Shown one piece after another: positions 35,827 to 36,584 of a stretch of 64,000 nt of DNA (the first letter of the stretch is position 1; each line of letters begins with the position of its first letter). The translations under genes and the position numbers were made by a program. Below the pieces are notes generated by a model. That model made no database searches and was not told where the DNA came from. It saw only the letters and a list, made by a program, of their open reading frames with translations. The stretch comes from Escherichia phage phi92. Where the stretch lies: the sequence record NC_023693.1. One strand, 5' to 3'.

Positions 35827-36309
35827 ATGGAACAACAAAAAGATAATACTATTGCAAAATTTGCTCGTCCAGAAGTAATGGTTGAAATTGATCTGGATGA
35901 AGGACGCAGTGTAAAATTTAGAGTTCTCAAGTGGAGTCCAACTAAAGTTTTTGAAAGGATTCCAGAACTAGGTAGTGTACTAGCTGTTCCTATGACAATG
36001 TATAATACTGCTCTTATGTCAGCAGACGAAGATCTAGAAGCTCGTATTGCTATGGCGCTGATCCAATTATTCAGTGGTCTGGAAGAAAAAAACTTAGCCG
36101 CATTCTTACGTAAAATTTTAGATGAAGTTTACACAGAAGCAGGTCACAGTGTTTCCGATAATTTTGATGAATTGTTTTTTGCTCACCCAGAATTAGTTGT
36201 TGACTTAGCTGCAAAAGTTCTTGAGGTGAACTATGCCCCTTTTTTCAAACGAGGTTTCGGAAAACTGTTGACCCAATTTCAAGGAATAGAGACTCTAGCG
36301 AAGAGTTAA
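35827..36309 (+). CDS. tail assembly chaperone (G-like)
   Basis: acidic 160-aa ORF immediately upstream of the tape measure gene; contains slippery heptamer. Confidence 0.55.
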   Translation: MEQQKDNTIAKFARPEVMVEIDLDEGRSVKFRVLKWSPTKVFERIPELGSVLAVPMTMYNTALMSADEDLEARIAMALIQLFSGLEEKNLAAFLRKILDEVYTEAGHSVSDNFDELFFAHPELVVDLAAKVLEVNYAPFFKRGFGKLLTQFQGIETLAKS

Positions 36310-36584
36310 GTCCGGCAATTAAATCAGCAATTGAAATTGCCTCACAAACCCTTAGCTTGACATGGTATGAAGTAATTCTTTGTAAGGTAATTAAGAATAC
36401 CTCCGAAACCTTGTCCTCGTTAGATAATTATGGTGTAGATTATCTACTTAAAATTTATGAATATTTAACATTCGAAGATTATGTACAAGATCTTCACGTT
36501 AAAGATGCGGATATTAAACGTGGTCAACAGAGAACAATAAGAGAACTGGATACGGCTATGAAAAAATTAATTCCAGATTCATAA
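36225..36584 (+). CDS. -1 frame extension of the tail assembly chaperone (GT-like product)
   Basis: -1 frame open from 36225; slippery T TTT TTC at 36240-36246 in the zero frame of the upstream ORF. Confidence 0.5.
   Translation, partial: GELCPFFQTRFRKTVDPISRNRDSSEELSPAIKSAIEIASQTLSLTWYEVILCKVIKNTSETLSSLDNYGVDYLLKIYEYLTFEDYVQDLHVKDADIKRGQQRTIRELDTAMKKLIPDS

What the first reader, a model, noticed from the sequence alone, without database searches (positions are those of the whole stretch)
36225..36584. Programmed -1 frameshift site in the tail assembly chaperone gene
The heptamer T TTT TTC at 36240-36246 lies in the zero frame of the chaperone ORF, and the -1 frame is open from 36225 through 36584. 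This gives the classic G/GT-like two-product arrangement directly upstream of the tape measure gene.
Basis: partly seen in the sequence, partly recalled or inferred. Interest (0 to 1): 0.45.

Follow-up and report, generated by a model that had tools for sequence, protein, structure and literature searches.

The report
Tail chaperone frameshift site, conserved, unannotated

Summary
T TTT TTC (36240-36246) lies in the zero frame of a tail assembly chaperone gene (35827-36309; Pfam Phage_TAC_15, E=1.6e-22). The -1 frame is open from 36225 to 36584 and ends 19 nt before the tape measure gene (36604-38583).

The window is a Justusliebigvirus (phi92-like E. coli myophage). One heptamer in an 85-nt overlap is only weakly surprising (about 0.13 expected). 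The comparative evidence is what decides it:
- In 41 distinct relatives (Stephanstirmvirinae, Vequintavirinae, Aeromonas Plateaulakevirus; down to about 26% protein identity) the same heptamer sits at the same place and phase.
- The codon before it changes amino acid (Pro, Cys, Ser) but always ends in T.
- The -1 frame is always open for 80-127 codons.
- A -1-frame Arg-Phe-Arg motif just after the site is kept where the zero-frame residues change.

The -1 ORF has no usable start or ribosome-binding site. No conserved downstream RNA structure exists. A Shine-Dalgarno-like GAGGUGA lies 10 nt upstream. In this subfamily the site extends to C CCU UUU UUC.

Verdict: a lambda G/GT-type -1 programmed frameshift giving 160-aa and 252-aa products. 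It is a new member of a known kind and is not annotated in the 20 records inspected. No experiment supports it yet.

The parts
35827..36309 (+). Tail assembly chaperone gene (G-like, short product, 160 aa, 18.1 kDa)
   Evidence: Pfam PF21822 Phage_TAC_15, E=1.6e-22. PHROG 3840 'tail assembly chaperone', E=4.4e-54. Annotated as tail assembly chaperone in RefSeq relatives. Mass.
36223..36229 (+). Shine-Dalgarno-like GAGGUGA, 10 nt upstream of the heptamer; candidate stimulator (inferred)
   Evidence: It has seven consecutive bases complementary to the 16S rRNA 3' end. Matches of this length occupy only 23 positions on the + strand of the 64-kb window. The Glu codon here is GAG in 12 of 12 Stephanstirmvirinae-like sequences, although GAG makes up only 20% of Glu codons in the window. 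It is not universal in Vequintavirinae.
36237..36246 (+). Slippery sequence C CCT TTT TTC: two overlapping heptamers. T TTT TTC (36240-36246) is the one conserved family-wide.
   Evidence: T TTT TTC is invariant in 41 of 41 distinct loci. C CCT TTT occurs only in the Stephanstirmvirinae-like sequences, where the third base of codon -2 is C in 12 of 12 although the amino acid varies between Ala, Gly and Ser. Both heptamer types rank among the most efficient in E. coli (PMC4066793).
36246..36584 (+). -1 frame extension (T-like domain, 112 codons plus stop). The frame is open from 36225.
   Evidence: Translation. Matches phrog_16039 (unknown function), E=3e-45. Conserved residues across about 26-30% identical relatives: A168, L178, W180, E212, Y213 of the fusion. 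No ATG and no SD before 36558.
35827..36584 (+). Predicted fusion CDS join(35827..36246, 36246..36584): GT-like long product, 252 aa, 28.8 kDa, junction ...NYAPFF|QTRFRK...
   Evidence: Built. tblastn finds it as two pieces in two frames in most of 369 phage records. Mass.
36604..38583 (+). Tape measure protein gene (TTG start, GGAGG at 36592-36596)
   Evidence: phrog_16051 'tail length tape measure protein', full-length match. Same coordinates as annotated in relatives.
35304..35783 (+). Tail tube gene (context)
   Evidence: PF11681 KPP10_Orf10. Annotated as tail tube or virion structural protein in relatives.
33839..35245 (+). Tail sheath gene (context)
   Evidence: PF11863 DUF3383, E=1e-21. 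Annotated as 'tail sheath' in RefSeq VEcB.
35787..35806 (+). Terminator-like hairpin plus T run between the tube and chaperone genes
   Evidence: Annotated as 'terminator' in OX090893.
38589..38612 (+). Terminator-like hairpin just after the tape measure gene
   Evidence: 10-bp stem, 6 GC pairs, then a T run.

Best explanation
This is a lambda G/GT-type programmed -1 ribosomal frameshift in the tail assembly chaperone gene of a phi92-like myophage.

Most ribosomes translate 35827-36309 and release a 160-aa chaperone. A minority slip back one base on U UUU UUC, with tRNA-Phe in both the P and A sites re-pairing from UUU-UUC to UUU-UUU. In this subfamily they may also slip on the overlapping C CCU UUU. 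They then read CAA ACG AGG... in the -1 frame to 36584. The result is a 252-aa protein with the same N-terminal chaperone domain plus a 112-aa C-terminal domain.

By analogy with lambda gpG/gpGT (PMC5009743), the shared domain would coat the tape measure protein encoded immediately downstream. The extra domain would recruit the tail tube protein, and the slip frequency would fix the ratio of the two products.

Shown here:
- the geometry of the site;
- family membership of the chaperone;
- conservation of the site, and of -1-frame coding that begins at the site;
- absence of an independent start for the -1 ORF.

Inferred:
- that slippage is ribosomal;
- that the upstream GAGGUGA acts as a dnaX-style stimulator;
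- the roles of the two products;
- a low shift frequency.
For: 1. Geometry and phase are verified.

2. The gene is a tail assembly chaperone and lies between the tube and tape measure genes.

3. T TTT TTC is invariant, at the homologous place and phase, in 41 of 41 distinct loci from Stephanstirmvirinae, Vequintavirinae and Plateaulakevirus. The codon before it is TGT in 21, CCT in 13, TCT in 5 and AGT in 2, so three amino acids are used but the last base is always T. Phe-Phe is always TTT TTC. In the 26-sequence alignment the heptamer is the longest run of invariant columns, while third positions of nearby codons vary.

4. The -1 frame is open for 80-127 codons after the site in every locus (101 in one contig-truncated locus) and, wherever the tape measure gene is annotated, ends shortly before it. 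The +1 frame is closed.

5. The -1-frame motif Arg-Phe-Arg, 3-5 codons after the heptamer, is kept where the zero-frame residues change (GFG, GLG, GLD, GFA, GFE). In Aeromonas phage 4L372XY the -1 frame opens only one codon before the heptamer. Together these pin the shift to the heptamer.

6. The C-terminal domain is conserved at the protein level across relatives of about 26-30% identity.

7. The -1 ORF has no ATG before 36558 and no SD. GenBank records give it inconsistent starts.

8. All 45 protein homologues are 151-175 aa, so none is an in-frame fusion. There is no second copy in the window.

9. U_UU.U_UU.C and C_CC.U_UU.U belong to the most efficient heptamer class in E. coli, and U_UU.C is the second-best tetramer (PMC4066793).

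10. The SD-like GAGGUGA lies 10 nt upstream. Matches of 7 nt or more are rare in the window, and the synonymous GAG choice is fixed in the subfamily.

11. The same -1 frameshift has been proposed at an invariant GTTTTT motif in chaperone genes of the related Vandenendeviridae and Andersonviridae (PMC12846349).
Against: - There is no direct evidence of the fusion protein. No proteomic or reporter data for this phage group were found.
- There is no significant downstream RNA structure in the window (z = -0.67 and +0.68), none conserved across 26 relatives (RNAalifold gives zero pairs), and no Rfam match. The slip would therefore depend on the heptamer and perhaps the SD-like element alone, so efficiency may be low.
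- The SD-like element also encodes the conserved peptide Leu-Glu-Val-Asn. It is weak or absent in some Vequintavirinae and in 4L372XY, so its role is uncertain.
- The IMG/VR loci were retrieved with a peptide pattern that includes NY[GA][CPS]FF. Their amino-acid conservation at the site is therefore by construction; only their codon choices are independent evidence.
- The phage's T-rich codon usage makes T-ending codons common.
Confidence: 0.85

Rival explanations
1. Transcriptional slippage. RNA polymerase adds one extra U on the T6 run, so a fraction of mRNAs read CCU UUU UUU CAA ACG... The same 252-aa protein is then made by ordinary translation.
For: - The conserved element is a homopolymer run.
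- There is no conserved downstream RNA structure.
- The product would be identical (sequence logic), so conservation of the ORFs cannot separate the two models.
Against: - The run is exactly six T in 41 of 41 loci and is never longer. From established knowledge, productive slippage by bacterial RNA polymerase generally needs runs of about 7-9 or more. Sharma et al. note depletion of 7-mers for this reason (PMC4066793).
- The run is always in the X XXY YYZ phase.
- An SD-like element at the dnaX-like spacing makes sense only for a ribosomal mechanism.
- U_UU.U_UU.C is a measured ribosomal slip motif in E. coli.
Confidence: 0.07
2. There is no recoding. The downstream ORF is a separate small gene translated from its own start, as GenBank and RefSeq records annotate it (58-83 aa 'hypothetical protein').
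For: Most of the public records inspected annotate a separate small CDS here; a few leave the stretch unannotated. Gene callers find TTG starts at 36357 and 36411.
Against: - The window has only TTG candidates, with no SD, and the first ATG lies 8 codons before the stop. Neighbouring genes have clear AGGAG-type SDs.
- Annotated starts differ from record to record.
- -1-frame amino-acid conservation (RFR..SPAI..A..L.W..) extends upstream of every candidate start and into the overlap.
- The -1 frame is kept open back to the heptamer in all loci.
Confidence: 0.04
3. The shift is real but happens somewhere other than T TTT TTC, for example only on C CCU UUU or further downstream in the overlap.
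For: C CCU UUU is also an efficient motif, and its defining C is fixed in Stephanstirmvirinae-like sequences. It gives the same protein, so it cannot be excluded as a contributor in this phage.
Against: - C CCU UUU is absent from Vequintavirinae and Plateaulakevirus, which keep only T TTT TTC.
- -1-frame RFR conservation begins 3-5 codons after the heptamer, which excludes sites further downstream.
- No other in-frame X XXY YYZ exists in the window's overlap.
Confidence: 0.04

Closest known systems
Phage lambda gpG/gpGT tail assembly chaperone -1 frameshift (Levin et al. 1993; Xu, Hendrix & Duda 2004, 2013, 2014; reviewed in PMC5009743)
   Same: There are two overlapping ORFs between the major tail gene and the tape measure gene. 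[quoted passage not shown] The arrangement is conserved despite low protein similarity. In neither case was a downstream stimulatory RNA structure found (for lambda this is from my own knowledge).
   Different: The heptamer is U UUU UUC (tRNA-Phe in both sites) rather than G GGA AAG. The phage is a large contractile-tailed myophage, not a siphophage. An SD-like element lies 10 nt upstream. The product ratio and function have not been measured here.
P2 E/E+E' and other myophage chaperone frameshifts (Xu et al. 2004; the Atkins review notes 2- to 3-fold higher efficiency in P2-like phages, PMC5009743)
   Same: It is a contractile-tail phage with a chaperone frameshift between the tube and tape measure genes. 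P2's slip site is also T-rich (from my own knowledge, not checked here).
   Different: No detectable sequence relationship was tested. The chaperone belongs to a different Pfam family (TAC_15).
-1 frameshift proposed at an invariant GTTTTT motif in the chaperone genes of Vandenendeviridae (Pakpunavirus Adele) and Andersonviridae (PMC12846349, Dec 2025)
   Same: The virion modules are related (that paper groups these families with Stephanstirmvirinae and Vequintavirinae). The downstream part is likewise misannotated as a separate hypothetical gene. [quoted passage not shown] The Vequintavirinae site found here (TGTTTTTTC) contains GTTTTT.
   Different: That paper did not analyse Stephanstirmvirinae or Vequintavirinae chaperone loci. 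tblastn from this family did not reach those families, so homology of the sites themselves is not shown.
E. coli dnaX gamma/tau -1 frameshift
   Same: A homopolymer-type heptamer with an SD-like stimulator about 10 nt upstream (spacing from my own knowledge; SD search range of 6-17 nt from PMC4066793).
   Different: dnaX also needs a strong downstream hairpin, and none is present or conserved here. dnaX shifting shortens the product, whereas here it lengthens it.
T4-like phages' two-gene solution for short and long chaperones (Vladimirov, Gautam & Davidson 2022, as summarised in PMC10885494)
   Same: A myophage needs both a short and a long chaperone form.
   Different: Those phages carry a separate in-frame fusion gene. 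Here no in-frame fusion or second copy exists, and the two-frame layout is universal.

Membership tests
G/GT-type tail assembly chaperone -1 programmed frameshift | Two overlapping ORFs located between the major tail (tube) gene and the tape measure gene, on the same strand | tested here: met
   Tube 35304-35783, chaperone 35827-36309, -1 ORF to 36584, tape measure gene 36604-38583.
G/GT-type tail assembly chaperone -1 programmed frameshift | The upstream ORF encodes a tail assembly chaperone | tested here: met
   PF21822 at 80.8 bits (cut-off 22). phrog_3840, E=4e-54.
G/GT-type tail assembly chaperone -1 programmed frameshift | [quoted passage not shown] | tested here: met
   T TTT TTC at 36240-36246, plus C CCT TTT at 36237-36243.
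G/GT-type tail assembly chaperone -1 programmed frameshift | Site and two-frame arrangement conserved in diverged relatives | tested here: met
   41 of 41 distinct loci across three phage groups.
G/GT-type tail assembly chaperone -1 programmed frameshift | The downstream ORF lacks its own translation start | tested here: met
   No ATG before 36558, and no SD at the TTG candidates.
G/GT-type tail assembly chaperone -1 programmed frameshift | The fusion protein is made at a low, fixed ratio and is required for tail assembly | not testable with these tools
   Needs mass spectrometry, reporter assays and genetics. No published data were found.
dnaX-type stimulated -1 frameshift | SD-like sequence about 6-17 nt upstream of the heptamer | tested here: met
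   GAGGUGA at 36223-36229, 10 nt upstream. It is not universal in relatives.
dnaX-type stimulated -1 frameshift | A stable downstream hairpin or pseudoknot | tested here: not met
   z = -0.67 and +0.68. RNAalifold finds zero pairs across 26 sequences. No Rfam hit.
Transcriptional slippage recoding | A homopolymer A or T run long enough for polymerase slippage (about 7-9 or more) | tested here: not met
   The run is exactly T6 in all 41 loci. The threshold comes from established knowledge.
T4-like two-gene chaperone system | A separate gene encoding the in-frame long form | tested here: not met
   All 45 homologues are 151-175 aa. There is no second copy in the 64-kb window. The rest of the genome was not examined.

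The most novel reading that the evidence does not exclude
The frameshift may run without any mRNA structure. It would rely on a tandem pair of overlapping heptamers (C CCU UUU UUC) plus an SD-like element, and its frequency would be set or timed by the phage's own tRNAs. The window encodes tRNA-Gln(UUG), tRNA-Pro(UGG) and tRNA-Phe(GAA) side by side at 21829-22066. These are exactly the species that decode CCU-UUU-UUC and the first -1 codon, CAA. If phage tRNA-Phe or tRNA-Pro differ from host tRNAs in slippage propensity, the ratio of long to short chaperone would be under phage control rather than fixed by the mRNA.
Probability: 0.07. Interest if true: 0.55.

Novelty: new member of a known kind. 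Interest (0 to 1): 0.25.

Why it matters
The main value is for annotation and comparative biology.

- **Annotation.** tblastn finds the two-frame arrangement in several hundred public genomes of phi92-like, phAPEC8-like and rV5-like phages, many of them phage-therapy candidates. The 20 records inspected list the second half of this gene as an unrelated "hypothetical protein" with arbitrary starts, or leave it out. It should be annotated as join(35827..36246, 36246..36584) with ribosomal slippage.
- **Extent of conservation.** The identical heptamer U UUU UUC has been kept across at least three phage groups whose chaperones share only about 26-30% identity. This extends the generality of the Xu-Hendrix-Duda rule to another large clade of myophages.
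- **An experimental system.** The site gives a clean example, in an E. coli host, of a frameshift that appears independent of RNA structure, for testing the SD-like stimulator.

It does not change what is understood about the mechanism.

Tried and rejected
- **Downstream stimulatory structure.** Single-sequence folds were not better than shuffles. RNAalifold on 26 diverse sequences gave no pairs. Rfam gave nothing at gathering score; the sub-threshold hits at 35741-35909 overlap the terminator hairpin.
- **Solved structures.** A profile of nine fusion proteins found no PDB relative at E up to 1.
- **Natural in-frame fusions or a second gene copy** (the T4-like solution). None was found.
- **Reaching Vandenendeviridae and Andersonviridae.** tblastn from the most distant member (4L372XY) did not reach them.
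- **Literature.** No report of this frameshift was found for Stephanstirmvirinae, Vequintavirinae or phi92. The Vladimirov/Davidson 2022 paper is not held and is cited only through others' summaries.
- **Doublet decoding.** I considered and rejected decoding of the AAA codon after the heptamer by the odd tRNA-Lys, because AAA is not conserved outside the subfamily.

Full report
**What the window is.** The region 35300-38600 is 99.7% identical to Escherichia phage Nernie and 99% or more to about 20 other Justusliebigvirus genomes (phi92-like, subfamily Stephanstirmvirinae). The local gene order on the + strand is as follows:
- tail sheath, 33839-35245 (DUF3383);
- tail tube, 35304-35783 (KPP10_Orf10);
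- a 160-aa ORF, 35827-36309, matching Pfam Phage_TAC_15 (E=1.6e-22, 80.8 bits against a cut-off of 22) and phrog_3840 "tail assembly chaperone" (E=4e-54);
- a -1 frame ORF;
- the tape measure gene, 36604-38583 (phrog_16051, full length).

Terminator-like hairpins bracket the chaperone and tape measure unit at 35787-35806 and 38589-38612.

**Checking the observation.** The zero-frame codons are GCC CCT TTT TTC AAA, so T TTT TTC at 36240-36246 is correctly phased as X XXY YYZ. The -1 frame has TGA at 36222-36224 and is open from 36225 to the TAA at 36582-36584. The overlap with the zero frame is 85 nt. Either heptamer gives the same junction...NYAPFF|QTRFRK....

**Is it more than chance?** On its own, barely. 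In-phase X XXY YYZ heptamers occur at 0.0048 per codon in this window's long ORFs, so about 0.13 are expected in an 85-nt overlap. The comparative evidence decides the matter.

I collected 41 distinct loci. They came from GenBank phages found by blastn and tblastn (loci) and from IMG/VR contigs. They cover Justusliebigvirus, Phapecoctavirus and other Stephanstirmvirinae, six or more genera of Vequintavirinae (rV5, phiTE, SSE121, GAP31, KB57, Hena1 and others), and the Aeromonas Plateaulakevirus 4L372XY. Fusion-protein identity falls as low as about 26%.
- In all 41 loci the zero frame reads N-N-T TTT TTC at the homologous position (..E-V-N-Y-G-x-F-F..).
- The codon before the Phe pair is TGT (21), CCT (13), TCT (5) or AGT (2). 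That is three different amino acids, but the last base is always T.
- Phe-Phe is always TTT TTC.
- In a 26-sequence nucleotide alignment the heptamer is the longest run of invariant columns.
- In 12 Stephanstirmvirinae-like sequences the third-position entropy is typically 1.0-1.8 bits upstream. It falls to zero at six of the eight codons from -6 to +1 and stays low to +5.

Two caveats apply. The IMG/VR loci were retrieved with a peptide pattern containing NY[GA][CPS]FF, so only their codon choices count as independent evidence. This phage also favours T-ending codons.

**Evidence that the -1 frame is really read from the heptamer.**
1. After the site the -1 frame is open for 80-127 codons in every locus (101 in one contig-truncated locus). 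Wherever the tape measure gene is annotated, it ends shortly before that gene. The +1 frame is closed.
2. Three to five codons after the heptamer the -1 frame encodes Arg-Phe-Arg in 37 of the 41 loci. The zero-frame residues at the same nucleotides vary (GFG, GLG, GLD, GFA, GFE). For example, rV5 has GGT TTA GGA (Gly-Leu-Gly) in frame 0 and CGG TTT AGG (Arg-Phe-Arg) in frame -1. Selection there acts on the -1 reading, well upstream of the zero-frame stop.
3. In 4L372XY a -1-frame TAA lies one codon before the heptamer, and in many Vequintavirinae three codons before. The shift window is therefore squeezed onto the heptamer from both sides.
4. The C-terminal domain is conserved as protein (invariant A168, L178, W180, E212, Y213 of the fusion) and matches phrog_16039.
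5. In the window the -1 ORF has no ATG until eight codons before its stop. Its two TTG candidates have no SD, whereas neighbouring genes have AGGAG-type sites. GenBank records assign it starts that differ from record to record, or omit it.
6. All 45 protein homologues in the 5.8-billion-protein collection are 151-175 aa, so no natural in-frame fusion exists. There is no second copy of either domain in the window.

**Mechanism.** Sharma et al. measured all heptamers in E. coli. H_HH.U_UU.Y (H = U, C or A; Y = U or C) is among the most efficient classes, and it includes both U_UU.U_UU.C and C_CC.U_UU.U. U_UU.C is the second-best tetramer (PMC4066793). The site is therefore intrinsically slip-prone in the host.

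No stimulatory RNA structure is evident. Folds of 36247-36330 and 36200-36400 are no better than shuffles. RNAalifold finds no consensus pair in 26 sequences. Rfam finds nothing at gathering score.

Upstream, GAGGUGA (36223-36229) has seven consecutive bases complementary to the 16S rRNA 3' end and lies 10 nt before the heptamer, which is the dnaX-like spacing. Such matches occupy only 23 positions on the + strand of the window. The Glu codon inside it is GAG in 12 of 12 subfamily members, although GAG makes up only 20% of Glu codons here. However, this stretch also encodes the conserved peptide Leu-Glu-Val-Asn, and it is degenerate in Certrevirus-like, Mydovirus and Plateaulakevirus loci. I therefore rate it a probable lineage-specific enhancer, not a defining part.

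In Stephanstirmvirinae-like sequences the third base of codon -2 is C in 12 of 12, although the amino acid varies between Ala, Gly and Ser. This suggests selection for the extended C CCU UUU UUC.

**Function by analogy.** In lambda, gpG and the G part of gpGT bind the tape measure protein, and the T part binds the tube protein. The ratio of about 30:1 is critical, and neither protein is in the virion (PMC5009743). Here the predicted products are 160 aa (18.1 kDa) and 252 aa (28.8 kDa). These roles are inferred, not shown.

**Rival explanations.**
- *Transcriptional slippage* on T6 would give the same protein from CCU UUU UUU CAA. It is disfavoured because the run is never longer than six in any locus and because the SD-like spacing makes sense only for a ribosomal mechanism. 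Sequence alone cannot exclude it.
- *Independent initiation of the small ORF*, the current database annotation, is contradicted by the absence of a start or SD and by -1-frame conservation upstream of every candidate start.
- *The T4-like two-gene solution* (as summarised in PMC10885494) is not present.

**Comparison with what is known.** This is the Xu-Hendrix-Duda conserved chaperone frameshift in another myophage clade. A December 2025 paper argued, on the same kind of evidence, for a -1 frameshift at an invariant GTTTTT motif in the chaperone genes of the related Vandenendeviridae and Andersonviridae. It noted the same misannotation (PMC12846349). I found no report for Stephanstirmvirinae or Vequintavirinae, and none of the 20 records I inspected annotates a joined CDS.

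The finding is therefore real and correct, but it is an expected new member of a known kind. Its practical value is correcting the annotation of this phage group. Its modest scientific value is showing that the identical U UUU UUC has been held fixed across three diverged phage groups without a conserved RNA structure.

**Scores.** Interest 0.25. Confidence in the -1 ribosomal frameshift reading 0.85.

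Noticed in passing
window 20508-20583 (+): ARAGORN calls this 'tRNA-???' with a two-base anticodon (tt), while Rfam scores it as a good tRNA (63.7 bits). 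Relatives annotate the homologue as tRNA-Lys(UUU). The window copy has one extra T in the anticodon arm compared with phage VEcB (AAGGGTCTTTTAA against AAGGG-CTTTTAA). The anticodon stem is weak in both copies. This could be a real polymorphism or a sequencing error.
   Followed up: partly
window 19625-22544 (+): ARAGORN finds a cluster of 15 tRNA genes. tRNA-Gln(UUG), tRNA-Pro(UGG) and tRNA-Phe(GAA) lie side by side at 21829-22066. These are the tRNAs that decode CCU UUU UUC and the first -1 codon, CAA, of the frameshift site. This is probably coincidence, but it could be tested.
   Followed up: no
window 19874-19952 and 20019-20108 (+): The two tRNA finders disagree. Rfam reports a tRNA at 19874-19952 (38.6 bits) that ARAGORN does not list. 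ARAGORN lists tRNA-Ser(UGA) at 20019-20108, which is not in Rfam's gathering-score list.
   Followed up: no
window 35787-35806 and 38589-38612 (+); promoter-like site 38622-38651: Terminator-like hairpins lie just after the tube gene and just after the tape measure gene. An 11-of-12 sigma-70-like promoter match follows the second hairpin. The chaperone and tape measure genes would then be expressed by read-through at a lower level than the sheath and tube genes.
   Followed up: partly
window 35784-35909 (-): A sub-threshold Rfam match to the sRNA SraG (36 bits against a gathering score of 50, E=3e-4) overlaps the terminator hairpin and the start of the chaperone gene. It is most likely driven by the hairpin.
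   Followed up: no
GenBank MG065639, MG065645, MG065656, MG065689 and other MG0656xx records: Several records named 'Campylobacter phage', with host Campylobacter jejuni, are 99.5% identical to this E. coli phi92-like phage. Others match rV5-like phages. The host labels look wrong, or the samples were contaminated.
   Followed up: no
window 36357-36584 and 36411-36584; relatives L001-L017: Public records annotate the -1 extension as a separate 'hypothetical protein' whose start and length differ from record to record (117 to 267 nt), or omit it. None of the 20 annotated records inspected carries a joined or ribosomal-slippage CDS.
   Followed up: yes
window 36800-36900 (+), tape measure residues about 66-100: The tape measure protein has a Gly/Ser/Pro-rich low-complexity stretch (GLGGGNPPPIPPTGGSSGGGKGGSGRGGSGSSGG), followed by a very Arg/Glu/Lys-rich segment. 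In Vequintavirinae the -1-frame linker of the chaperone fusion is also Gly/Ser-rich.
   Followed up: no
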